DNA from: an uncultured Verrucomicrobiota bacterium
GTDB taxonomy: Bacteria > Verrucomicrobiota > Verrucomicrobiia > Limisphaerales > UBA9464
DNA length: 63,504 bases
Assembly (NCBI GenBank): GCA_903880005.1
Contig: CAIRNV010000002.1
Span: 1-63,504 of the forward strand
Reading direction: 5' to 3'
Shown: in pieces, positions 45,543 through 62,138 of the stretch
Numbering within the stretch: the first letter of the stretch is position 1
Layout: each line of letters opens with the position of its first letter
The notes under the pieces: model-generated
What the model was told of the DNA's origin: nothing
The model's input: only the letters and a program-made list of their open reading frames with translations
Databases searched by the model: none
Translations under genes and position numbers: made by a program

Positions 45543-47183
45543 TCACGGTGAAGGCAGCCGCTTCAGCAGGTAAGCCCGCCGCTGGTCCGCGAAGTTCTTC
45601 AGCCCCATCGAGCCGCCGCCGCCCGGCCCGAACCCCGTGCCCGCATGGTCCTCCGTCAGGCTCGTCTCGAAGGCCTCCGTGGACTCCAGCTTGCGCGTGT
45701 CCAACCGAACCTCCGCCGCGATCAAGTCGTGATACCGCTGCGCCACCGGCCCCAGCGTCTTCCAGTCCAGATGCTTGTCCGCCATCTGCCGCACCAACGC
45801 CAGATACCGTTCCCTCAACGACGGCACCGCCAGCAACTTCGACAGCAACGGCTTCGCCGCATCATTGGCCGCCACCAACGGATCCAGCTCCACCCCCATG
45901 CCCCCTCTCCCACCACCCGGTCCGCCCGGTCCACCCGGTCCACCCGGTCCACCCGGTCCACGCCGCCGTCCACCCGCCCGCGTGAACGTCTCGTTGGTGT
46001 CCCCCGGCAGGACATGAAACCTCCCCTGCCCATCCTGGCAAATCAGGTAGTCGCTCGCCCGAACCCAGTAGCCGTCGTTGTTCACCAAGGCGTTCTCCAA
46101 CGCCAGGAAACGCAGCGCCCCCTCGATGTCCAGGATCGGCTCCAATGCCTTCTCCAACTCTCCCGACGGCGTTTGGTTCAGGACCTTGCACAATTGGATC
46201 AGGTCCGCCCAAGCCTTGGGATCCTCCTTGCTCTTGAGGTCGTAGATCTTCTTGTACGGCGCCGGATCCTCGCCCAGGTACTCAAGGCCACCCTTTCCGT
46301 TTGGCGAGCCCGGCACCTTCCAACGCGCGGCCTTCGACGTCTTGAAGTGATGCTGCACGAAGTCCTTGTTGAATTGCTCGAGGCTCGCGTAGATGCCCCA
46401 GGACTCTCCATTGACCACCAACCGGACAAGGTTCGCACGCGGCGCGGGCACGTACTGACGGGCCACCTCGCAGTACAACACCGCCCGCAGGAAGCTCGGG
46501 TCCTCGTGGCTGTTCAACAGGTTCAGGGTCCGGAACCCATCCACCGACTGCCCCTCCTTGAACGCATCCAATGAGATGTTCAACGAACGCTTCCGACCCG
46601 TGCCCACCATCCCGTAGGACGACATCCCACGAAAATGCACCCCGACGTCCTCGTAGGTCTTGCCGTCCACCATCAACCGCGCCGGCACCTCCACATCGGT
46701 GTCATGGAAGGCCTCCAGTTCCTTTTCCCACCCCGGGCCGTCGAACGTCAGGAACAACGTCCGCAACACTCCCGTGTCGTAAAACGCCTTCCCGGCGTGC
46801 GACGTGGCGTCGGCCGGAGACACCCTCGGGCCAGGCTTGGACGGGGCAGCATCTTCCCGACGCGGGCCCCCAGGCCCGAAGCCACCGCGCCCGGGGCCAC
46901 GCCGCTGCGGCCCTCCACCGCTCGCGGCCTCCTTGGCCAGGAACTCGCGCGCCGCGTCTCGCTCCAGCGAATCCAGCTTCTTGTCACCGTTCTTGTCGAA
47001 CTGCTTGAGCAGCTTCCGATCCGGTTGCACCCCGCCCGGAGGCCCCCCAAACCGCCCCCCCGGTCCCCCCGGTCCCCCCGGTCCACCCGGCGGCGGTCCG
47101 TCAGGCAACTGTGAAAACGCCATGCCTGTGGCTAGAGCAGCCGCCAAGGCGGCACGAAGGATGCCAGAGATAGGATGCAACAT
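45543..47183 (-). CDS. CotH kinase family protein with EF-hand-like loop and Gly-Pro repeats, secreted
   Basis: Start at MLHPISGILRAALAAALATGMAFS (47183). EF-hand-like loop: FDKNGDKKLDSLE. CotH-like core: RKRSLNISL..LNLLNSHEDPSFLRAVLYCEVARQYVPAPRANLVRLVVNGESWGIYASLEQF. It is a paralog of 1353-2993. Confidence 0.8.
   Translation of the reverse strand: MLHPISGILRAALAAALATGMAFSQLPDGPPPGGPGGPGGPGGRFGGPPGGVQPDRKLLKQFDKNGDKKLDSLERDAAREFLAKEAASGGGPQRRGPGRGGFGPGGPRREDAAPSKPGPRVSPADATSHAGKAFYDTGVLRTLFLTFDGPGWEKELEAFHDTDVEVPARLMVDGKTYEDVGVHFRGMSSYGMVGTGRKRSLNISLDAFKEGQSVDGFRTLNLLNSHEDPSFLRAVLYCEVARQYVPAPRANLVRLVVNGESWGIYASLEQFNKDFVQHHFKTSKAARWKVPGSPNGKGGLEYLGEDPAPYKKIYDLKSKEDPKAWADLIQLCKVLNQTPSGELEKALEPILDIEGALRFLALENALVNNDGYWVRASDYLICQDGQGRFHVLPGDTNETFTRAGGRRRGPGGPGGPGGPGGPGGGRGGMGVELDPLVAANDAAKPLLSKLLAVPSLRERYLALVRQMADKHLDWKTLGPVAQRYHDLIAAEVRLDTRKLESTEAFETSLTEDHAGTGFGPGGGGSMGLKNFADQRRAYLLKRLPSP
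45913..45957. repeat. 5 tandem copies of a 9-bp unit (CCRCCCGGT) inside the CotH gene
   Basis: Read directly as ccacccggt ccgcccggt ccacccggt ccacccggt ccacccggt. It encodes the (GPG)n stretch GPGGPGGPGGPGGPGG. Confidence 0.85.
47056..47091. repeat. 3-4 tandem copies of 9-bp C-rich unit (CCCCCCGGT) inside the CotH gene
   Basis: Read directly. It encodes the N-terminal PPPGGPGGPGGPGG stretch. Confidence 0.7.
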
Positions 47184-47379
47184 ACGATGCGCTTGCCCCC
47201 TCATGACCGGCCAACGGATGCCCGGTAACATGGGAGTTGCCGACGCCCTAATGCTTCGACGCAGATGGAATCCGAGACCTCACCCGCCGCACGGAGCTAC
47301 GGAATCCTCGCCGCCATGTGCGGACACGCGACCTACGGCGACCTACGGCATGGTCCAAGCGTCCGCTTCCACCGAAGGG

Positions 47380-47679
47380 CTAGGCATCAACGCCTTCGCC
47401 GGCTCGCTCGTGTGTCTCCACCGCCACGGGTGCGTCCACTTCGGCAACCTCGACCACTCGAATCTCCACTCGGTCGCCCACGGCCAAGTCGGCGGTCGGC
47501 CACGTCCCCACCACCACCTGGGGCTCCGGAGTGATGCCGGTGGCTGAAAAGAAAATGCTGACGTCATCCGGCTTGGGCATCGGTATCCGAACGAGCGTCA
47601 GCACGGCTTGGAGCGTCTGGTAATCGCCGCCGACGGTGAAGCGCTTCCGTCCGTTGATGTGAATCTCGAAGGCAATCAT
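47380..47679 (-). CDS. hypothetical small protein (99 aa)
   Basis: This is the only ORF in the 660-bp gap between the MksB-like and CotH genes, and it is co-directional with them. MIAFEIHINGRKRFTVGGDYQ.. looks beta-rich. I recognise no homolog, so coding status is uncertain. Confidence 0.35.
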   Translation of the reverse strand: MIAFEIHINGRKRFTVGGDYQTLQAVLTLVRIPMPKPDDVSIFFSATGITPEPQVVVGTWPTADLAVGDRVEIRVVEVAEVDAPVAVETHERAGEGVDA

Positions 47680-47845
47680 GGCGCGGTGATGGCTACCGAC
47701 TGCATCTCAGCAACCCGGCGCACGGGCGCAGCGGTGGCAACCACGACGTGCCCGCCGGGATCGTTGGTCCGCATGGTTGAGGTGATCCAAGGGGGGCGGG
47801 AGAGGCGCGTTCCTGAACGAGGCCAGCGATTCGTGTATCGAGACG

Positions 47846-50563
47846 CTAGGCGCCCTTCCCCGGCGGCTTGACCGCGATGCGATGGGGTTGTCGCAAGACG
47901 ATCCGCCCTTGGTACGGTTGCAAGAAGTACAACGAGGACACCTCGCTCACCGACTCGGGGGCCGCCGTCAACGCGATGAACCCCAGGCGCCGCGCCGTCG
48001 CCAGGATCGCGTGGCGGTTCGTCGCGTCGAGCGAGTGGATCTCGTCCAGGAAGAAGGGCACCTCGCACAGCAGCGAGTGCGTGGCGTCCTCCCGCAGCAA
48101 GGAACGCAGCACGATCAGGTTGAACAGCACCTTGATCGTGATCGTGGTCCCGTGGGACTCGACCTGCCGAAAGTCGTTGTAGTGATGGGGCCGGCCGTCG
48201 TCGCCCGTCACCGTGAAGCGCAAGGTGAAGAGGTCGGCGTGCCGCAGGAGCGGCGTGGCCTCGAAACGTTGCTTGAACGAGGCCAAGGCCGCGTTGATCC
48301 CGGATTGGGCGTCGAACAGCCCCGGTTGATCAGACTCCGCCAGCTTGCGGAGCGAGCCCACGACGTCCGGTTGCTCCACGACGTCGAGGCGCAGGGAGGC
48401 CAGGTTGGACACCTGGACGCCCGCCAACGCGCGGTTCAATCGGACCGCCGCGCCCTGGATGTCCGCAAGGTCGCGAAGCACCTCGTCGAACTTGGACCGC
48501 ACCTCCGTCACCTGCGTCTCCCAGTCGCGACGCAGGGCGTCCTCACGCTCCGGCAACGCCTCCAGTTCCTCGCGGAGGTTCCTCACCGTCTCGGCGTCGT
48601 CGGCCCCCACGTGGTCGGAGCCCAGCCGCGACTCCACGGCCAGACGAAGCCGCGCCATGGCATCCCCCAGGCGATTGGACTCATCCTGCGCGTGGAGATA
48701 CTGGGCGACCGCGTCGTCGAACTCCTCCGGGATCGGGCGGGACGGCGCGGCGGGGTCGGGAACCGTGTCAGGCCGCAGGCAAAGCGCATGCCGGGACATC
48801 GACGCCTCGTGGGCGCGCCGCAGCTCCACGCGCTCCCGCTCGGCCTCCTCGTGGCGACGCCGCTCGGCGTCCGCTCGCACCACCAGGTCTCGGATACGTT
48901 CCGACACCGACACCAACGACCCGTCGATCCCGGCCAGTTCCGCCTCGTGCCTCGGGAGCAGCGCCAGATCCTGCTGAAGCGCCTCCCACTCGAACATCCG
49001 CTTGCGGGCCGCGTCCTGCTCGGCGCGCAGCGACTGCACGCGCGCGGCCAGCCTCTCGTGCTGCACCAACGCCGCGAGCATCGACTCCCAGTGCGCCACG
49101 CGCTCGTCCTCCTCCGCGATCCGGCGCCGCAACGCCTCGGGATCGGCCAGCTCAGCCAGGGCGCCGGAAGCGTCCGGCAGCGGAATCTCCACGGCGCCGT
49201 CCCGGTAGGCCCCGTCGCGAATGCGGGACGCCACCTCGTGAAGCCGCTGGAGGAGCACCTTGGGCTCCAGGATCCGCACGCCGTCGTCCCCCACGGGCAA
49301 CCCAAGGAGATCCGCGTTGAACAGCGACGCCAGCCCCGCAAGCTGCGCAGGCTCCAAGTCCCGCCGCAGCACCGACACGAGCGCGCGGTCCAGATGCTCC
49401 AGGCTCGCACGCAGCCGCAAGGCCCGCTGGCGATGGGACTCCAGGCTCTGCTCCGCCTGCGCCCGCGAGGCACGGCTGGCATCCGATAGCTGCCGCTCCA
49501 ACGCGTGGATCTCCTTCTCCCGGTTCTCCAGCGCCGCACGCTCCAGCTCCTCCACGAAGTCCGCGAGGCGGCCGCGCCGGTCCCGGATGCGACGAATCTC
49601 CCCCAGCAGCGAGCCCCGCGACTCCGACAACTCGCGCTCCTCGCGCCGCCGGTCGTCGGCCTCCGCGCCCAGCCCGGCCACAAGCCGGAGGGCCGCCTCG
49701 GACGCCTCCGACAACGCCGCCACCCGCGCCTCGTGCAACCGGACCCGCTCGTCCCTCTTGGACCGCAGGTCCGCCCAACGGTAGGACAGCTCGCGCAACA
49801 GCACGCCCCGGCGCTGGTGGGACTCCACGAGCTGGTGCACCGGCTCGCGGGCCTCCTTGAAGCGAACCAACGCATCCCGCCGCCGCAGGATGGACTCGTA
49901 CGTGTCGCCCAGCAGGTCGCGGATGTTGAGCGCCGGCTTGTCCACCGGCAGCCCGGCCAGCATCAGCAGACGATCCCGCATCTGGTCCTGCGTGATCGTC
50001 GCCAGGGACAGCAGGTTCTTCAGCGTCTCGCGGAAGTGCGGGTAGCGGTCGTTGTCTCGCAAGGCCACCAACCCCAGCCCGCGCGCCTCGCCCTTCGTCG
50101 GCATGAGCAGCAGCTCGCGATGCTCCTGCGCGGAGCGCACGAGCGAGAAGTTGCGAAGCGCCAGGCGGGCCGCCACGGCCCTCGGCTCGCGCACTTGATG
50201 GCCCTCGTCGAGAAAGTCCTCGGGATCGAACGGCCCGTCGTAGATGAAGCGCTCAGGCTCCCCGCCCGCCGCCCTCGCCTGGCCGCGCCAGCCCAGCACG
50301 CACTGTCCACGCGACCCCAGGCACTGGAACAACACGTAGGAATACGGCCCCGGGAAGTAGTAGTCGCGCGTCTGCTCCGGCGTGTACGAGCCAAAGTCCA
50401 TGTGCCGCCGGTCGTCCAGGTACAGGAACTGCAACGTGTTGATCAGCGTCGTCTTGCCCGTGTTGTTCGGCCCGACGATCTGCACGGAGCCCGTCAGGTC
50501 GATCTCCGCGAAGTCATATCGGCCGGCACGGATGAGGATGAGCTTTTGGGGGCCTTGGGGCAT
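47846..50563 (-). CDS. mksB: MukB/MksB-like SMC-family ATPase (JetC-like)
   Basis: Start at MPQGPQKLILIRAGRYDF (50563), 11 nt after the upstream stop. Walker A: GPNNTGKTT. There are about 600 aa of Arg/Glu/Leu-rich coiled-coil-type sequence, interrupted centrally by a non-helical segment (..FNADLLGLPVGDDGVRILEP..). The C-terminal head has ESHGTT (signature-like) and PFFLDEIHSLD (Walker B). Confidence 0.7.
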   Translation of the reverse strand: MPQGPQKLILIRAGRYDFAEIDLTGSVQIVGPNNTGKTTLINTLQFLYLDDRRHMDFGSYTPEQTRDYYFPGPYSYVLFQCLGSRGQCVLGWRGQARAAGGEPERFIYDGPFDPEDFLDEGHQVREPRAVAARLALRNFSLVRSAQEHRELLLMPTKGEARGLGLVALRDNDRYPHFRETLKNLLSLATITQDQMRDRLLMLAGLPVDKPALNIRDLLGDTYESILRRRDALVRFKEAREPVHQLVESHQRRGVLLRELSYRWADLRSKRDERVRLHEARVAALSEASEAALRLVAGLGAEADDRRREERELSESRGSLLGEIRRIRDRRGRLADFVEELERAALENREKEIHALERQLSDASRASRAQAEQSLESHRQRALRLRASLEHLDRALVSVLRRDLEPAQLAGLASLFNADLLGLPVGDDGVRILEPKVLLQRLHEVASRIRDGAYRDGAVEIPLPDASGALAELADPEALRRRIAEEDERVAHWESMLAALVQHERLAARVQSLRAEQDAARKRMFEWEALQQDLALLPRHEAELAGIDGSLVSVSERIRDLVVRADAERRRHEEAERERVELRRAHEASMSRHALCLRPDTVPDPAAPSRPIPEEFDDAVAQYLHAQDESNRLGDAMARLRLAVESRLGSDHVGADDAETVRNLREELEALPEREDALRRDWETQVTEVRSKFDEVLRDLADIQGAAVRLNRALAGVQVSNLASLRLDVVEQPDVVGSLRKLAESDQPGLFDAQSGINAALASFKQRFEATPLLRHADLFTLRFTVTGDDGRPHHYNDFRQVESHGTTITIKVLFNLIVLRSLLREDATHSLLCEVPFFLDEIHSLDATNRHAILATARRLGFIALTAAPESVSEVSSLYFLQPYQGRIVLRQPHRIAVKPPGKGA

Positions 50564-50574
50564 GAGGGCAGGGG

Positions 50575-51156
50575 TCAGGGTGCAGGGGTCGGGGTGCGGT
50601 CGGCCGCCGTCTCGCCGGCCTTCGCCGCGCCCGCAGCGGGCGACGACGCCTGGGCGGCCAGCTCGAGGCACTTGTCCAGCAGGCGGTGAAAGGGGCGGAG
50701 AAACTGGAACTCGTCCTCGCCCAGCACCTTGGCGAAGCCGAACCGCTCCAGGTTGCGAACCACCTGCCGCAACCCGGACACCTCCTCCACGTCCACCTGC
50801 CGCAGCAGCCCGACGTATCGGTCCAACGCCAAATGCGGCAGGCGCGAGATCAGGAAGTGCTGGCCAAAGATGTACTCCTCGATGGGCCGCCCCTCGTTGG
50901 CCGCATGGTCCACCAGGATGAACGAGAACACCGCGATGCGGGACAACGTCTCGCGCTCACCCTCGCCCGCGTCGGGCTCGAAGTAGAAGAAGTCGCGCGG
51001 GTGCCGCACCAACGTGATGCCCAGCTGCCGGAACCACGACGCATACTCGTCGTGCCGGGCCGCCACCGCCGAGAACATGGGCTCGTCCTCCGGCGACAGG
51101 TGATGGCCGCGACGCAGCCGGTCGAAGACTTCTCGTAGATGGGGAAGCTCGGTCAT
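50575..51156 (-). CDS. mksE: MukE/MksE-like condensin accessory subunit (JetB-like)
   Basis: ATG 51156 overlaps the upstream stop (ATGA). LRRGHHLSPEDEPMFSAVAARHDEYASWFRQLGITLVRHPRDFFYFEPD parallels the E. coli MukE segment [36 protein letters not shown], recalled from memory. A later LSRIAVFSFILV parallels LSELDMMVGKIL. Confidence 0.7.
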   Translation of the reverse strand: MTELPHLREVFDRLRRGHHLSPEDEPMFSAVAARHDEYASWFRQLGITLVRHPRDFFYFEPDAGEGERETLSRIAVFSFILVDHAANEGRPIEEYIFGQHFLISRLPHLALDRYVGLLRQVDVEEVSGLRQVVRNLERFGFAKVLGEDEFQFLRPFHRLLDKCLELAAQASSPAAGAAKAGETAADRTPTPAP

Positions 51157-52442
51157 GGGTTGCAAAGTTGGACGGGACAGGACTCCAGCTCGCCGTCGGA
51201 CGTGACGTGCACGCGGGCCTCGCCACCCTCGAATCGCGTCGCGAACGAGCGGTCGAACACCAGCCGCGTGAATCCCGCCAGAGCCTCGGACGAGGTGCGG
51301 GCGGGGTGCCGCTTCACCAGCCAGCCCAGAAGGTCGTCGATCGGCAGGCACGCCCGCGCCTCGTCCGGCAAGCCATCCAGCCAGACCCGACGCAGGTAGT
51401 CGGGCGGCAGGTCCTCCGGCGCGTCCAGAGCCAGGACGGGGGGCGGCTCCACCGTCGCCTCCGCCACGTTGCGCAACGCCCGGGTGATCGCCAGGTCCGA
51501 CGGCACATGGTGCCAGCGTTGGATGAAGGCCCGGACGCCATGGGCATCGGCCCATCCCGAGGTTCCATCCTTCTGCAAGGCCTCCAACGCCTTCGCCGCG
51601 CCCTCGGCAAGAAACGAGGAACGCCGCAGCGAGTCGTACAGGGGCTGCAATTCGCGCCGGCACTGCTGGAAGACCCTCAGGGCATGGCGCTGGACGATCC
51701 GCAACAGCCGCAGGCTCCGCTCCATCGTGGGAAGGTCCGTGAACAACCCCTGCTCCCGCGCCCGAACCAGCAGCCGCCCCGTCTCGTCGAACACCGACCT
51801 CAACGGCCCGTCCGGTCGCACCACGTCCGACATCGGCTCCACGTACCGCTCCATCCAGTGGACGATCCGCCGGAACTTGTCCCGGACCGAGATCGTGCGG
51901 CGCTCGGTCTTGTAACGGGACACCTCGTTCAAGATGCACCGATGCGTCTCGTCCAGGTCCGCCTGCACCCGCAGCAGCGTCCGCTGGATGTCGTCGATCG
52001 CCAGGCGCAGGAGGGTCAGCTCCTCCTGGTCAATCGCCCGCGCCAACTGGCGGCCGCTCGCCTCGAGGGACTGGATGTAGCCGCGGACCATCTCCGGCGT
52101 CGCGGCCTGCGCGGCGTCGAACAGGTAGTCCAGCAACCGCCGCACCGGCTCCGCCAGGAAGTGGAAGTCGGACCCGGGCTCGCTCGGGACTAGGATGTGC
52201 AGCTCCGTCAGGCGCCGCCACGTCGTGTCCGGCAGCTCGCCACCCTCGTCCTGAGTGTCGCGAATCATCCGGCGCACGTCCGCCTCGGACATCTCGCCGC
52301 CCGCCGCGGCCAAGCGCCGCAGCAGGGGCACGTGGCCCTCGCAGAACCGGAAGAACGACTGGGGTGGTATCCTCATCAACCCTCGCCCGGACGCGACCAG
52401 GCGGGCCGACATCCTGCCGAGTCCCACCACAACGTCCAGCAT
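51153..52442 (-). CDS. mksF: MukF/MksF-like kleisin candidate (JetA-like)
   Basis: First gene of the operon, 429 aa (alternative ATG 52376). LLRRLAAAGGEMSEADVRRMIRD resembles E. coli MukF [27 protein letters not shown], from memory. The long helical middle, the position, and the size all fit MukF/MksF. Confidence 0.6.
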   Translation of the reverse strand: MLDVVVGLGRMSARLVASGRGLMRIPPQSFFRFCEGHVPLLRRLAAAGGEMSEADVRRMIRDTQDEGGELPDTTWRRLTELHILVPSEPGSDFHFLAEPVRRLLDYLFDAAQAATPEMVRGYIQSLEASGRQLARAIDQEELTLLRLAIDDIQRTLLRVQADLDETHRCILNEVSRYKTERRTISVRDKFRRIVHWMERYVEPMSDVVRPDGPLRSVFDETGRLLVRAREQGLFTDLPTMERSLRLLRIVQRHALRVFQQCRRELQPLYDSLRRSSFLAEGAAKALEALQKDGTSGWADAHGVRAFIQRWHHVPSDLAITRALRNVAEATVEPPPVLALDAPEDLPPDYLRRVWLDGLPDEARACLPIDDLLGWLVKRHPARTSSEALAGFTRLVFDRSFATRFEGGEARVHVTSDGELESCPVQLCNP

Positions 52443-52531
52443 CCGAAATCCAGCCCCAGCCGCCCGGCAACCTCCTCGGGGCCGGGCTTGACCCGGGGCC
52501 GCAGGACATGGCTAAGTTCTCCCAGCGTCGC

Positions 52532-52624
52532 GGAGAGGTGGCCGAGTGGCTGAAGGCGCTGGTTTGCTAAACCGGTTTACGGCCAAAAGCCGTAACGAGG
52601 GTTCGAATCCCTCCCTCTCCGCCA
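52532..52624 (+). tRNA. tRNA-Ser (anticodon GCT)
   Basis: Acceptor GGAGAGG/CCTCTCC; anticodon arm CTGGT-TTGCTAA-ACCGG; long variable arm TTTACGGCCAAAAGCCGTAAC; T arm GAGGG-TTCGAAT-CCCTC; discriminator G plus encoded CCA. Total 93 nt. Confidence 0.95.
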
Positions 52625-52914
52625 ATCTCCCCAAACGCCCCAATACCAAGGCTTTCCAACAAAACCATGGCGGGCCGCGAGGCCGAAACTCTAAGCATCC
52701 GCCCCGCATCCCCCATGGCGTTTCAAGCGGCTTCAAGGGAGTTCAACTGTTTCGCCGTGTTGCGTGGGAACCGTCCCCGTCATCGATCCCGCGAGGGCCA
52801 CGTCCTGCGCCACCAGCGCACCGTGGATGCGCCCAGTACCCGCAGGGCGATGGTTGCCTCCATCTCCATCCTGCGCCGCCAGATCCTCCCCGGGCCGTCG
52901 AGGGCACCGCTGGC

Positions 52915-52944
52915 TCGAATCCCTCCCTCTCTGCCATTCTCCCC
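52915..52944 (+). repeat. duplicated 3' end of tRNA-Ser (att-like direct repeat / tRNA fragment)
   Basis: TCGAATCCCTCCCTCTCTGCCATTCTCCCC compared with 52603-52632 TCGAATCCCTCCCTCTCCGCCAATCTCCCC gives 28/30 identity. Weaker similarity (GCCGT..CGAGGG) extends about 25 nt upstream with an indel. The T-stem cannot pair, so this is not a functional tRNA. Confidence 0.8.
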
Positions 52945-53012
52945 GTTCAAATCCCCCCGCCCAAAATCCCTTCTCGCCATGCCTCGCCGGCAACGGGCAT
53001 CCTTTCGCTGAA

Positions 53013-53321
53013 ATGTCCGGATCGACGACTGGGGAAAAAGCCAGCAAGGGCAACGTGGCCTCGCGTGACGTGGTGGTGAAAAACCGCCAAGGCATCCATG
53101 CGCGGCCCTCCGCCGCCTTCGTGAAGCTCGCGGCTCAGTTCCGATGCGAGGTCATCCTCGAAAAGGACGGCGAGGCCATCAACGGCAAGAGCATCATGGG
53201 CCTCCTCATGCTCGCCGCCGGACCCGGGTCCCGCGTCCGCATCGTCTGCGACGGCGACGACGCCCTCGCCGCCGTCGAGCAGTTGGCGGCGCTCGTCAAC
53301 GGCGGCTTCGGCGAACTGTGA
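53013..53321 (+). CDS. ptsH: HPr family phosphocarrier protein
   Basis: Contains NRQGIHARPSAAFV (His15 site) and INGKSIMGLLML (Ser46 site). Track ORF trimmed to MSGSTTGEK. Confidence 0.85.
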   Translation: MSGSTTGEKASKGNVASRDVVVKNRQGIHARPSAAFVKLAAQFRCEVILEKDGEAINGKSIMGLLMLAAGPGSRVRIVCDGDDALAAVEQLAALVNGGFGEL

Positions 53322-59997: not shown

Positions 59998-61203
59998 ATG
60001 AACGAACCAACACGACACCCCCGCAGATCAGTGGCTGAATTCTTCGCAGGCATCGGGCTCATGCGCATGGGACTGGAGGCTGCCGGCTGGAGCATCGCCT
60101 TTGCCAACGACATCGACCCTGACAAGTGGGCGATGTATCGAGGCCACTTCGGGTGCACAGGCGAGTTCGTGCTGGGCGACGTTCACAAGCTCAAGACTTC
60201 GCAAGTGCCAACGGTATCATTGGCTACCGCTTCGTTCCCATGCAACGACCTTTCCTTGGCCGGGGCGAGGAATGGGTTGGCGGGCTCCCAGTCATCCGCT
60301 TTCTGGGGCTTCGTGGACGTTCTCAAGGCCCTCAAGCGTGAGCGGCGGAATCCGCCCATGGTCCTTCTTGAAAACGTCACAGGCTTCCTCAGCTCCAACG
60401 ACGGCCAGGATTTCGAGAATGCCCTTCTGGCATTGAACTCCCTTGGGTATTCCGTGGACGCCTTCATTGTGGACGCCTCGAGGTTCGTGCCACAAAGCCG
60501 TCAACGCCTCTTTGTCGTGGGCATCCAATCTCCAAACGTGGACTCCCTGGACGACACGCCGGGCTTCTACGAGTCGGAAATCCGCCCGCCTGCCCTCGCC
60601 AGCTTCATCATGCTGCACCCGGACATTGCTTGGCGTATCAAGCAACTGCCGAGGCTGCCACACCGATCGATTGCCCTCGCCGACGTGATCGAGGATGTAC
60701 CCATGAACCATCATTTGTGGTGGAACCGGGAGCGCTGTGAATACCTCCTGAACCAAATGAGCCCGAAGCACCGGGCGGAGGCCGAGGGAATGATCAACGC
60801 CGAAACCACTTCCTATGGGACGGTCTTTCGGCGGGTTCGCAATGGCAGGTCCATGGCAGAACTCAGGACGGACGGCATCGCCGGCTGCCTTCGCACGCCG
60901 CGCGGGGGCAGTGGCCGCCAAATCCTCTTCGCGGGGGGAAAAGGCCGTTACGGCATCCGCCTCCTCACCCCAAGGGAATGCGCCCGGCTGATGGGGGCCG
61001 ACGACTTCATCCTGAATTGCCCGCTCAACCAGGCCCTATTCGGCTTCGGCGACGCCGTGTGCGTCCCCGTCATTCGTTGGATTGCCCACAACTACCTCGA
61101 CCCGGAGTTGGCCAAGCAAGACTCCACCCTCTGCGAAGCCTCAACGGCCTTGCAATCACCCAAGACCGTGCGACGAGCGCCCAAAAAGCCCATCCGTCCA
61201 TGA
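59998..61203 (+). CDS. DNA (cytosine-5)-methyltransferase
   Basis: m5C-MTase motifs appear in order: I FAGIGLM, IV FPCNDLS (catalytic Cys), VI LLENV, VIII QSRQRLF, IX TPRECARLMG, X GFGDAVCVP. Local GC is clearly lower than the flanks. Confidence 0.9.
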   Translation: MNEPTRHPRRSVAEFFAGIGLMRMGLEAAGWSIAFANDIDPDKWAMYRGHFGCTGEFVLGDVHKLKTSQVPTVSLATASFPCNDLSLAGARNGLAGSQSSAFWGFVDVLKALKRERRNPPMVLLENVTGFLSSNDGQDFENALLALNSLGYSVDAFIVDASRFVPQSRQRLFVVGIQSPNVDSLDDTPGFYESEIRPPALASFIMLHPDIAWRIKQLPRLPHRSIALADVIEDVPMNHHLWWNRERCEYLLNQMSPKHRAEAEGMINAETTSYGTVFRRVRNGRSMAELRTDGIAGCLRTPRGGSGRQILFAGGKGRYGIRLLTPRECARLMGADDFILNCPLNQALFGFGDAVCVPVIRWIAHNYLDPELAKQDSTLCEASTALQSPKTVRRAPKKPIRP

Positions 61204-62138
61204 ATCCCACCGCCCAGTGCATTCAAGAGTTGTGCCAGGCGCATCCAAAGCTCCTGAAAAAAGGAGGCTTGTGCGTGGGCCTCGTCGTGACCCAGGCGGC
61301 CATCGACAAGGGTCTGCCCCTGAATCCGGATTCTCTTGTCACCGCCGAGGGCGGGCAGGTCGCCGGTCTAGGCTCCGCTGCCGTTCAGAGAATCCTCTCC
61401 TCCAATGGCATTGAGCGCACCTTGGCAAAAGAGGGAGGCAGAACCAGCCGCGGCAGCCTAAATCTGATGAAGGTCTATGTCGCGGCACTCAACAGCCTCC
61501 ACAAATGCGGCCAAGCATCCATGGAAGACGCCATGGAGTGGTGGATTTTAAAGGTGCGCGCCCATTTTGCATCCGGCGGCCCACGATTTCGCTTCGATCC
61601 CAGCAAGTCACTCCGGGCAAACATCGATGACTTGCTAATTCAGGCGCGGGAGGTTCAGGCGAACGCCGGCGGCACCAACTATGTCGGGGCTATGTTGCAG
61701 CATCTCATCGGAGCCAAACTCGACCTCGTCCTCGGCACCGGAAAAATCCAACACCATGGATTTAGCGTGGCTGACGCCTCGACCCAACGCCTCGGGGATT
61801 TCCAGATGGATTCCGTAGTCTTCCACGTCACAACTCACCCTACCGAGGCGTTGGTGCAAAAGTGCGGAGAAAACCTCTCCGATGGACTCAAGCCGGTCAT
61901 CCTAACTCTGGGAGACGGCCTGGTTGGGGCTTCATTTCTCTTGAAGGGCAGGGCGCTTGATGACCGCGTGGATGTCCTTGATGCAGCCCCGTTCCTGACG
62001 GCCAACGTTTACGAAAGAAGCTTTTTTGACCTTCAAGCGTGCAAGGTCACCCTCGCCAAACTACTCACGCGATACAACGAGATCGTTGCGGCGTGTGAAA
62101 CAGATCCGGCGCTCAGCATCGGCTTCTCGAAACACTAG
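61200..62138 (+). CDS. DUF4928-like protein, candidate cognate restriction endonuclease
   Basis: ATG 61200 overlaps the methyltransferase stop (ATGA). 312 aa; the assignment to DUF4928 is from memory of that family being found next to dcm-type genes. It has the lowest GC in the window. Confidence 0.55.
   Translation: MNPTAQCIQELCQAHPKLLKKGGLCVGLVVTQAAIDKGLPLNPDSLVTAEGGQVAGLGSAAVQRILSSNGIERTLAKEGGRTSRGSLNLMKVYVAALNSLHKCGQASMEDAMEWWILKVRAHFASGGPRFRFDPSKSLRANIDDLLIQAREVQANAGGTNYVGAMLQHLIGAKLDLVLGTGKIQHHGFSVADASTQRLGDFQMDSVVFHVTTHPTEALVQKCGENLSDGLKPVILTLGDGLVGASFLLKGRALDDRVDVLDAAPFLTANVYERSFFDLQACKVTLAKLLTRYNEIVAACETDPALSIGFSKH

What the first reader, a model, noticed from the sequence alone, without database searches (positions are those of the whole stretch)
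47846..52442. MukF/MukE/MukB-like (MksFEB / JetABC-like) SMC operon with no JetD/MksG-type nuclease gene
Three tightly coupled minus-strand genes are present. The first two overlap by ATGA at 51153-51156, and an 11-nt gap separates the second and third at 50564-50574.

- The first gene (429 aa) carries a MukF-like GGEMSEADV.. segment.
- The second gene (193 aa) matches the MukE hallmark LR.G.H..(25-30 aa)..L.R.P..FFY..P.
- The third gene (905 aa) is an SMC-type ATPase with Walker A GPNNTGKTT, two long coiled-coil arms around a central hinge-like segment, and Walker B FFLDE.

This gene order is the one used by MukFEB, MksFEB and Wadjet JetABC. In Wadjet, a fourth gene (JetD/MksG, Toprim nuclease) supplies the plasmid-cleaving activity, and no such gene follows here. 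The next 660 bp hold only a 99-aa orphan ORF, followed by a CotH kinase gene.

The operon sits divergently next to a tRNA-Ser that carries an att-like scar. Its GC looks native. It could be (a) an accessory chromosome-organising condensin, (b) a Wadjet derivative that has lost or replaced its effector, or (c) a variant using an unlinked or novel effector.

PVC bacteria normally use Smc-ScpAB, so a MukBEF-type complex in this lineage is worth characterising.
Basis: partly seen in the sequence, partly recalled or inferred. Interest (0 to 1): 0.75.

Follow-up and report, generated by a model that had tools for sequence, protein, structure and literature searches.

The report
Mks SMC operon that lost nuclease
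This is a real three-gene MukBEF-like (Mks/Wadjet-type) DNA-motor operon in a verrucomicrobial genome. Its relatives almost always carry a fourth, DNA-cutting gene that this lineage has lost, yet the three remaining genes are still kept intact by selection.

Summary
Three coupled minus-strand genes encode a MukF/JetA-type kleisin (51153-52376, probably 407 aa rather than 429), an MksE KITE protein (50575-51156) and a 905-aa SMC ATPase (47846-50563). No Toprim nuclease gene occurs anywhere in the 63.5-kb window.

The new result is comparative.
- The same cassette is common in Verrucomicrobiota and Acidobacteria.
- In 22 of the 23 complete-cassette relatives outside the window's clade, the SMC gene is followed directly by a conserved ~285-aa gene. 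It is intact in 21 and carries one in-frame stop in L025.
- That gene has a JetD_C/DUF7281 Toprim domain, and its predicted fold is closest to the C. glutamicum MksG nuclease.
- Only the window's clade lacks it (window, L001, L002, L006/L019; at least 81% SMC identity).
- That clade is nested inside nuclease-bearing lineages with 100% bootstrap support.
- Independent assemblies reproduce the gap, so this is a single evolutionary loss and not an assembly error.
- After the loss, all three genes stayed under purifying selection (dN/dS 0.10-0.21), and conserved sites did not erode.

My best reading is a nuclease-free MksBEF-type DNA-organising complex, as proposed for P. aeruginosa MksBEF. An unlinked nuclease is not excluded. 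I file it as a new member of a known kind, of moderate interest.

The parts
51153..52376 (-). Kleisin subunit (MukF/JetA/MksF-type; databases call it 'MksB', PF28010).
   Evidence: - NCBIfam NF040857: 5.4e-12 over residues 76-402.
- Precomputed Pfam PF28010.
- Homologues are 407 aa.
- AF2 model: pLDDT 79, N-terminal winged helix, helical middle, C-terminal winged helix.
- Best PDB fold matches: MukF 9gm7_C 3.1e-5, 7nz2, 3euh; JetA 9qe0_E, 8q72_E, 8dk2_A.
50575..51156 (-). KITE subunit MksE (MukE/JetB-type), 193 aa. Its ATG overlaps the kleisin stop (ATGA).
   Evidence: - Pfam MksE PF21980: 1.6e-30, above cut-off.
- Pfam MukE PF04288: 1.7e-4, below cut-off.
- NCBIfam NF040858: 2.8e-27.
- Weak PDB sequence hits to MukE 3euk, 7v8p.
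- Homologues align from residue 1.
47846..50563 (-). SMC-type ABC ATPase (MukB/JetC/MksB-type; databases call it 'MksF', PF28007), 905 aa. Walker A is at residues 31-38, the S-x-G signature at 803-805 and Walker B FFLDE at 837-841.
   Evidence: - NCBIfam NF040859: 3.5e-37 over residues 7-868.
- Pfam DUF3584: 1.2e-8.
- PF28007 precomputed.
- All family-invariant head motifs are retained.
- dN/dS is 0.12-0.21 within the nuclease-less clade.
47232..47845 (.). Position where relatives carry the ~285-aa MksG/JetD-like Toprim gene. Here it is a 614-bp spacer with no remnant of that gene.
   Evidence: - tblastn of 17 fourth-gene proteins finds nothing in the window (best E 0.09, scattered).
- The spacer is not conserved in L001, L002 or L019.
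47380..47679 (-). 99-aa ORF of a small uncharacterised family. It is strain-specific filler and not part of the Mks system.
   Evidence: - No Pfam, PADLOC or NCBIfam hit.
- 39 representatives at E<=1e-3 among 1.84 billion.
- Present in 98-100% identical strains.
- Absent at this position in L001, L002 and L019.
52532..52624 (+). tRNA-Ser(GCT), divergent from the operon.
   Evidence: ARAGORN.
52912..52944 (+). 33-nt direct repeat of the tRNA-Ser 3' end (91% identical). It is an att-like remnant on the HPr side and does not flank the mks genes.
   Evidence: only two copies in the window, against 0 expected by chance.

Best explanation
The three genes encode a complete kleisin-KITE-SMC complex of the MukBEF/MksBEF/Wadjet superfamily. 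It belongs to a large four-gene family (kleisin PF28010, MksE PF21980, SMC PF28007, and a short Toprim nuclease of the DUF7281/JetD_C type). That architecture is the Wadjet/MksBEFG one, in which the SMC motor senses DNA and the nuclease cuts it.

In the ancestor of the window's clade the nuclease gene was deleted, and the three motor genes were kept. The complex most likely still loads on DNA, hydrolyses ATP and extrudes or compacts DNA. Without a cutter, it would act as an accessory chromosome-organising or DNA-compacting complex, as reported for the three-gene MksBEF of P. aeruginosa.

Shown: the gene identities, the presence of the nuclease in relatives, the single derived loss, and continued purifying selection. 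Inferred: DNA loading, ATP-driven loop extrusion, and a condensin-like role.
For: **Identity of the three proteins**
- Profile matches.
- Precomputed PF28010, PF21980 and PF28007.
- The kleisin model matches MukF and JetA structures.

**Fourth gene in relatives**
- All 25 genome loci that span those genes keep the kleisin-E-SMC order.
- 20 of them have a ~285-aa gene about 10-25 bp after the SMC gene.
- The sister lineages L026 and L030 have it too.
- So do distant plasmid copies in Salinibacter and Pseudomonas, where DUF7281 scores above Pfam's cut-off.

**The fourth gene is a Toprim nuclease**
- It hits JetD_C, DUF7281 and DUF2399, and PADLOC JetD down to 1.5e-7.
- E151, D199-x-D201, E275 and E277 are invariant.
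- The AF2 model (pLDDT 84.6) is closest to the MksG nuclease 8b7f_A (5e-5) and then to topoisomerase VI-A.

**A single, real loss**
- There is no trace of the gene in the window.
- The identical SMC protein occurs on 13 contigs. The four places shown, from four assemblies, have the same gene order.
- L001, L002 and L019 also lack the gene, with different DNA after the SMC gene.
- In the rooted NJ tree the nuclease-less clade has 100% support and is sister to the nuclease-bearing L026/L030 with 100% support.

**Still functional**
- dN/dS is 0.10 for the kleisin, 0.13-0.20 for MksE and 0.12-0.21 for the SMC, at dS ~0.6-0.8 between the window and its clade-mates. Nuclease-bearing clades give 0.04-0.18.
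- Only 0-4 conservative substitutions occur at family-invariant sites, no more than in control clades.

**Precedent and context**
- The genomic context is housekeeping: HPr, gatCA, a Na/H exchanger and CotH.
Against: - No functional data exist for any member of this family.
- The rest of the genome could not be searched, so a relocated nuclease gene, or the presence or absence of smc-scpAB, is unknown.
- Family-invariant sites are fully preserved in the nuclease-less clade. That is what one would also expect if a nuclease partner still existed.
- The family is far from the P. aeruginosa MksBEF models (127.8 bits against a cut-off of 1900), so the analogy rests on architecture and not on orthology.
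- dN/dS was computed with a simple Nei-Gojobori pairwise method in a 70% GC genome, at dS 0.6-0.8.
Confidence: 0.55

Rival explanations
1. The complex is still a plasmid-restriction (Wadjet-like) system, and its Toprim nuclease gene has moved to another place in the genome.
For: - All conserved positions of the kleisin, MksE and SMC, which should include any nuclease-docking surface, are retained in the nuclease-less clade.
- Purifying selection is as strong as in four-gene loci.
- Only 63.5 kb of the genome could be inspected.
Against: - In 80 metagenome loci found with the nuclease profile, 73 of 76 informative ones have the SMC gene directly upstream.
- Only 3 are orphans, and 2 of those are N-terminally truncated. 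Unlinked copies are therefore rare.
- There is no hit in the window.
- No candidate was seen next to the operon in any of the nuclease-less relatives.
Confidence: 0.17
2. The complex restrains foreign or extrachromosomal DNA without cutting it, by compaction, silencing or sequestration, or it hands DNA to an unrelated, non-homologous effector.
For: - The ancestry is a defence-type four-gene system.
- Eukaryotic Smc5/6 is cited as restricting extrachromosomal DNA by silencing in the review read.
- A probable restriction-modification pair lies 7.5 kb away, so the region is not devoid of defence genes.
Against: - No conserved replacement gene lies next to the operon. The downstream neighbours differ in every nuclease-less relative: the 99-aa ORF, an FGE-sulfatase-like gene, an MFS transporter, or CotH directly.
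- In Wadjet all four subunits are reported to be needed for plasmid restriction (PMC10586767).
Confidence: 0.18
3. The operon is a non-functional remnant on its way to decay after losing its effector.
For: Decay does occur in this family. L024 has a truncated and deleted SMC gene, L025 has a stop codon in the nuclease gene, and L051/L052 have a split SMC gene.
Against: - All three ORFs are intact in the window and on L001.
- The stretches held on the partial contigs L002 and L006 are also uninterrupted.
- dN/dS is 0.10-0.21 over dS ~0.6-0.8.
- The ATPase motifs and every family-invariant site are retained.
Confidence: 0.05

Closest known systems
Wadjet / JetABCD = MksBEFG = EptABCD plasmid-restriction systems (types I-III; C. 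glutamicum MksBEFG, E. coli GF4-3 and P. aeruginosa PA14 JetABCD)
   Same: - The gene order kleisin-KITE-SMC is the same.
- The kleisin fold matches JetA.
- Orthologous loci end with a CAP-like plus Toprim nuclease whose best structural match is MksG.
- The acidic Toprim residues are conserved.
   Different: - The window has no nuclease gene.
- Sequences are very far from typed Wadjet. PADLOC gives no JetA hit, JetB at 0.04 and JetC at about 1e-3 to 3e-4. No PDB sequence hit was found even with profiles.
- The family's nuclease is short (~285 aa against ~370-430 aa) and is of the DUF7281 type, not the DUF3322+DUF2220 type.
Three-gene MksBEF condensins without MksG (P. aeruginosa MksBEF; M. smegmatis MksB with MksEF)
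   Same: - Both are three-gene operons with no nuclease.
- The best database matches of all three window proteins are the 'Mks condensin complex' models NF040857-59 and Pfam MksE.
[quoted passage not shown]
   Different: - Scores are far below the equivalog cut-offs (45, 96 and 128 bits against 750, 400 and 1900).
- The window operon is therefore not an orthologue but an independent lineage.
- Here the loss is recent and phylogenetically resolved, with nuclease-bearing sisters at 68-73% identity.
E. coli-type MukBEF
   Same: - The kleisin model's top structural matches are MukF chains.
- MksE gives weak MukE hits.
- Gene order is the same.
   Different: - MukE Pfam scores below its cut-off (21 against 25 bits).
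- No MukB or MukF Pfam hits were found.
- The SMC is 905 aa, so its arms are much shorter (MukB is about 1,480 aa, from my own knowledge).

Membership tests
Wadjet / JetABCD (MksBEFG) | Kleisin subunit (JetA/MksF) encoded first in the operon | tested here: met
   - NF040857 at 5.4e-12.
- PF28010.
- Fold matches to MukF and JetA.
- However, no PADLOC JetA model hit.
Wadjet / JetABCD (MksBEFG) | KITE subunit (JetB/MksE) | tested here: met
   Pfam MksE at 1.6e-30, above cut-off. PADLOC JetB only 0.04.
Wadjet / JetABCD (MksBEFG) | SMC-type ATPase (JetC/MksB) with Walker A, Walker B and signature motifs | tested here: met
   NF040859 at 3.5e-37 over the full length. The motifs are invariant in the family alignment and present in the window.
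Wadjet / JetABCD (MksBEFG) | Toprim nuclease JetD/MksG encoded in the same operon | tested here: not met
   - No homologue anywhere in the window.
- No JetD or Toprim domain among the window proteins scanned.
- The feature is met in 20 of 25 orthologous genome loci and in L026 and L030.
Wadjet / JetABCD (MksBEFG) | Restriction or cleavage of small circular plasmids | not testable with these tools
   Needs a transformation assay or in-vitro cleavage.
Three-gene MksBEF condensin (P. aeruginosa type) | Kleisin-MksE-SMC operon with no MksG | tested here: met
Three-gene MksBEF condensin (P. aeruginosa type) | Orthology to the curated Mks condensin models (NCBIfam equivalog cut-offs) | tested here: not met
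   45.1, 95.7 and 127.8 bits against cut-offs of 750, 400 and 1900.
Three-gene MksBEF condensin (P. aeruginosa type) | Role in chromosome organisation or segregation | not testable with these tools
   Needs genetics, Hi-C or microscopy.
MukBEF | MukE, MukF and MukB family membership by Pfam | tested here: not met
   MukE PF04288 scores 21 bits, below the 25-bit cut-off. No MukF or MukB domain hits.
Smc-ScpAB | Canonical SMC (TIGR02168/9) with ScpA and ScpB | tested here: not met
   No SMC_prok, ScpA or ScpB hit for the three proteins. None among the other window genes scanned.

The most novel reading that the evidence does not exclude
The kleisin(PF28010)-MksE-SMC(PF28007)-DUF7281 cassette may be an undescribed fourth type of Wadjet-like plasmid-restriction system with a miniaturised MksG-like nuclease. 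Its PADLOC Wadjet-model hits are weak or absent. The window's clade would then be a recent, naturally occurring conversion of such a defence system into a nuclease-free, selectively maintained DNA-organising complex. That would capture in the act the defence-to-condensin transition proposed for MksBEF and MukBEF.
Probability: 0.4. Interest if true: 0.65.

Novelty: new member of a known kind. Interest (0 to 1): 0.45.

Why it matters
Reviews propose that chromosome-organising MksBEF, and perhaps MukBEF, descend from nuclease-armed Wadjet systems through loss of JetD. The known examples are too diverged to study that step.

Here nuclease-less operons (window, L001, L002) and nuclease-bearing sisters (L026, L030) share 68-73% protein identity. 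All remaining genes are under purifying selection. This offers a matched pair for asking three questions:
- What does an SMC defence motor do once disarmed?
- Does it need adaptive changes?
- Where on the motor does the nuclease dock?

The work also points to a large, literature-silent four-gene family with a short DUF7281 Toprim nuclease that the PADLOC Wadjet models match only weakly. It is common in Verrucomicrobiota and Acidobacteria, and more distant four-gene copies occur on plasmids.

Tried and rejected
**Searches that found nothing**
- Sequence and profile searches of the PDB with the three window proteins, and with alignments of the kleisin, SMC and nuclease, gave no significant hit. 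Weak MukE matches were the only exception. Structure prediction plus Foldseek was needed instead.
- A promoter and terminator scan of 47100-53100 was uninformative.
- No paper in the held library mentions DUF7281, PF23947, PF28007, PF28010 or PF21980. Petrushenko 2011 and Rybenkov 2014 are not held. A search for PA4683-PA4686 gave nothing useful on a fourth gene next to P. aeruginosa mksBEF.

**Ideas tested and rejected**
- Remnant of the fourth gene in 47232-47845: none by tblastn or by DNA comparison with relatives.
- The 99-aa ORF as a replacement effector: rejected. It is not conserved in L001, L002 or L019, has no domain hit, and belongs to a small family of ~90-120-aa proteins.
- The tRNA-Ser repeat as the border of an island containing the operon: rejected. 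The only second copy lies on the other side of the tRNA.
- tRNA next to the operon in relatives: none found, because the contigs end too early.
- Excess change at conserved sites in the nuclease-less clade, as a sign of relaxed constraint or adaptation: none.

**Technical notes**
- The first bootstrap script timed out. It was redone with numpy.
- Three apparent 'SMC 1.2 kb upstream' loci were artefacts of split SMC ORFs.

Full report
**1. What is in the sequence**

On the minus strand there are three tightly packed ORFs.
- 51153-52442 (429 aa from the first ATG).
- 50575-51156 (193 aa).
- 47846-50563 (905 aa from the ATG that homologues use; the longest ORF runs back to a GTG at 50671).

The first two overlap by ATGA. 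The second and third are 11 nt apart.

GC (0.68-0.71) and third-position GC (0.85-0.89) match the rest of the window. tRNA-Ser(GCT) lies divergently at 52532-52624. A 33-nt copy of its 3' end lies 312 nt further on at 52912-52944. That is between the tRNA and the HPr gene, so it does not enclose the operon.

**2. Identity of the three proteins**

*Gene 2.* It is an MksE-family KITE protein.
- Pfam PF21980 at 1.6e-30, above the gathering score.
- NCBIfam NF040858 at 2.8e-27.
- MukE only weakly.

*Gene 3.* It matches NCBIfam NF040859 end to end (3.5e-37, residues 7-868). It also matches DUF3584, the domain PADLOC lists for its JetC/MukB-like models. In a 20-sequence family alignment the following are invariant and present in the window:
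- Walker A, G31-x-N33-N34-x-G36-K37-T38.
- The S803-x-G805 signature.
- Walker B L839-D840-E841.

*Gene 1.* It matches NF040857 (5.4e-12) and the newer Pfam PF28010.
- Its AlphaFold2 model (29-sequence alignment, pLDDT 79) has an N-terminal winged helix, a long helical middle and a C-terminal winged helix.
- Its best PDB matches are MukF (9gm7_C 3.1e-5; 7nz2; 3euh) and JetA (9qe0_E, 8q72_E, 8dk2_A).
- Nearly all homologues are 407 aa and align from the window's M23. I therefore place the start at 52376.

Pfam and NCBIfam name the kleisin 'MksB' and the SMC 'MksF'. This is the opposite of literature usage, where the kleisin is MksF/JetA and the SMC is MksB/JetC (Liu et al. preprint).

**3. The surroundings**

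The next 614 bp hold a 99-aa ORF and then a CotH gene. Gene calls on identical public contigs, and my Pfam scans, show ordinary neighbours:
- PTS-HPr, gatC and gatA.
- A ceramidase/DUF7133 protein.
- A Na/H exchanger.
- PSCyt2/PSD1 proteins typical of the PVC group.

No Smc, ScpA, ScpB or Toprim protein is in the window.

**4. Related loci change the picture**

A scan of one genome per species returned 25 loci, mostly Verrucomicrobiota (Limisphaerales and others) plus Acidobacteria. All loci that span those genes keep the kleisin-MksE-SMC order.

In 20 of them a conserved ~285-aa gene follows the SMC gene on the same strand after about 10-25 bp. The same is true of L026 and L030, the closest lineages outside the window's clade (SMC 68% and kleisin 73% identical).

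It is also true of distant plasmid-borne copies:
- Salinibacter ruber pSR76.
- Pseudomonas sp. Leaf58 pBASL58.

In both, the fourth gene scores above Pfam's cut-off for DUF7281.

A converse scan of metagenomes with the fourth-gene profile gave 80 loci. In 73 of the 76 with enough upstream sequence, the SMC gene is directly upstream. Only three are orphans, and two of them are N-terminally truncated.

**5. The fourth gene is an MksG/JetD-like nuclease**

- Its C-terminal half hits JetD_C, DUF7281 and DUF2399, and PADLOC JetD models down to 1.5e-7.
- E151, D199-Y-D201, E275 and E277 are invariant. This is the acidic pattern expected of a Toprim site.
- An AlphaFold2 model (pLDDT 84.6) has an N-terminal winged-helix domain, a disordered linker and an alpha/beta C-terminal domain.
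- Its best PDB matches are the C. glutamicum MksG nuclease (8b7f_A, 5e-5) and topoisomerase VI-A (1d3y, 9o0g).

The ancestral system is therefore a Wadjet/MksBEFG-like four-gene system with a shortened nuclease.

PADLOC's JetA/B/C models barely see its motor proteins. No paper in the held library mentions its Pfam families.

**6. The window's lineage lost the nuclease**

*No trace remains.* tblastn with 17 fourth-gene proteins finds nothing in the 63.5-kb window.

*The closest relatives also lack it.* These are L001 (88% SMC identity), L002 (81-82%) and L006/L019 (85-92%). What follows the SMC gene differs in each:
- The 99-aa ORF in the window.
- An FGE-sulfatase-like gene in L001.
- An MFS transporter in L002.
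- About 200-390 bp and then CotH in L019.

*Assembly error is excluded.* The identical SMC protein was read on 13 contigs. The four places shown, from four ENA assemblies, have the same gene order. Contigs of a 98% identical strain from two further samples also share it.

*The loss is single and derived.* In an NJ tree of the SMC protein rooted with the two plasmid copies:
- The nuclease-less sequences form one clade (200/200 bootstraps).
- That clade is sister to L026/L030 (200/200).
- Both sit deep inside nuclease-bearing diversity.

**7. The remaining genes are still under selection**

Pairwise Nei-Gojobori estimates within the nuclease-less clade reflect only evolution after the loss.

| Gene | dN/dS, nuclease-less clade |
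|---|---|
| Kleisin | 0.10 |
| MksE | 0.13-0.20 |
| SMC | 0.12-0.21 |

dS is about 0.6-0.8 between the window and its clade-mates. Two nuclease-bearing clades of similar depth give 0.04-0.18 for the same three genes.

At columns invariant in all other family members, the nuclease-less clade has 1, 0 and 4 fixed changes in the kleisin, MksE and SMC. All are conservative (E-to-D, F-to-L, T-to-S, L-to-I, I-to-L), and the counts are no higher than in control clades.

The operon is therefore not decaying. Decay does occur elsewhere in the family: a truncated SMC in L024, a stop codon in the L025 nuclease gene, and a split SMC in L051/L052.

**8. Mechanism**

*Shown.* This is a complete, selectively maintained kleisin-KITE-SMC set derived from a nuclease-armed system.

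*Inferred.*
- The complex still binds DNA and uses ATP as other SMC complexes do.
- Lacking a cutter, it acts as an accessory DNA-organising complex.
- It also matches the three-gene MksB system of mycobacteria (PMC11329512).

*Rivals.*
- An unlinked nuclease. It cannot be excluded without the genome, but unlinked copies are rare.
- Nuclease-independent restraint of foreign DNA, or a non-homologous effector. No conserved neighbour supports this.
- Decay, which is contradicted by section 7.

**9. Comparison and novelty**

Three-gene and four-gene Mks systems have both been known since 2011. A three-gene operon is therefore not new in kind.

It is not an orthologue of the curated Mks condensin models (scores far below cut-off). 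It is not MukBEF. It fails the defining Wadjet feature of an operon-encoded Toprim nuclease.

Two things are new:
- The resolved, recent loss, with closely related armed sisters.
- Incidentally, a large DUF7281-type four-gene family that is absent from every paper in the held library.

I file the window's locus as a new member of a known kind and give it moderate interest.

Noticed in passing
window 59998-62138 (+): A C-5 cytosine DNA methylase (PF00145, 3.7e-50; 59998-61203) overlaps the start of a DUF4928 protein (1.7e-49; 60978-62138). They sit in a lower-GC islet (0.60-0.65 against ~0.70). This looks like an acquired restriction-modification pair.
   Followed up: partly
window 52625-52944: A 33-nt, 91% identical copy of the tRNA-Ser 3' end lies 312 nt downstream of the tRNA, before the HPr gene. 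It looks like the attR remnant of an integrated element that has since been almost entirely deleted. It does not enclose the mks operon.
   Followed up: partly
L003-L005, L007-L018, L020-L023, L025, L026, L030 (e.g. L003:10712-11572); L031:7137-7832; L032:6799-7809: A large four-gene family combines the kleisin, MksE, the SMC and a short (~230-340 aa) DUF7281/JetD_C Toprim protein. Its members are annotated 'hypothetical' wherever the source gives a name, its PADLOC Wadjet-model hits are weak, and it is not mentioned in any held paper. It may be an untyped Wadjet-like system.
   Followed up: partly
L025:10739-11584; L024:1069-2453; L051:1279-3995: There are signs of decay elsewhere in the family. 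The L025 nuclease gene has an in-frame stop at codon 87. L024 has a truncated and internally deleted SMC gene and no nuclease gene. L051/L052 have the SMC gene split into two ORFs. Sequencing error has not been excluded.
   Followed up: no
L101, L102, L106 (e.g. L106:3559-4494): These are rare orphan copies of the Toprim gene with no SMC gene upstream. Two of them lack the first ~40 residues and sit next to an unrelated gene on the opposite strand.
   Followed up: no
window 47380-47679 (-): The 99-aa ORF belongs to a small family of ~90-120-aa proteins (39 representatives at E<=1e-3 among 1.84 billion) with no known domain. It is present only in strains 98-100% identical to the window.
   Followed up: partly
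database names for window 51153-52376 and 47846-50563: NCBIfam (NF040857, NF040859) and Pfam (PF28010, PF28007) label the 407-aa kleisin 'MksB' and the 905-aa SMC 'MksF'. This is the reverse of literature usage (kleisin = MksF, SMC = MksB) and could mislead automated annotation.
   Followed up: partly
L001, L014 record titles: Some MAG labels look implausible for 53-70% GC contigs carrying this verrucomicrobial-type cassette. L001 is labelled 'uncultured Akkermansia sp.' and L014 'uncultured Bifidobacteriaceae'. This may reflect mis-binning or mislabelling.
   Followed up: no
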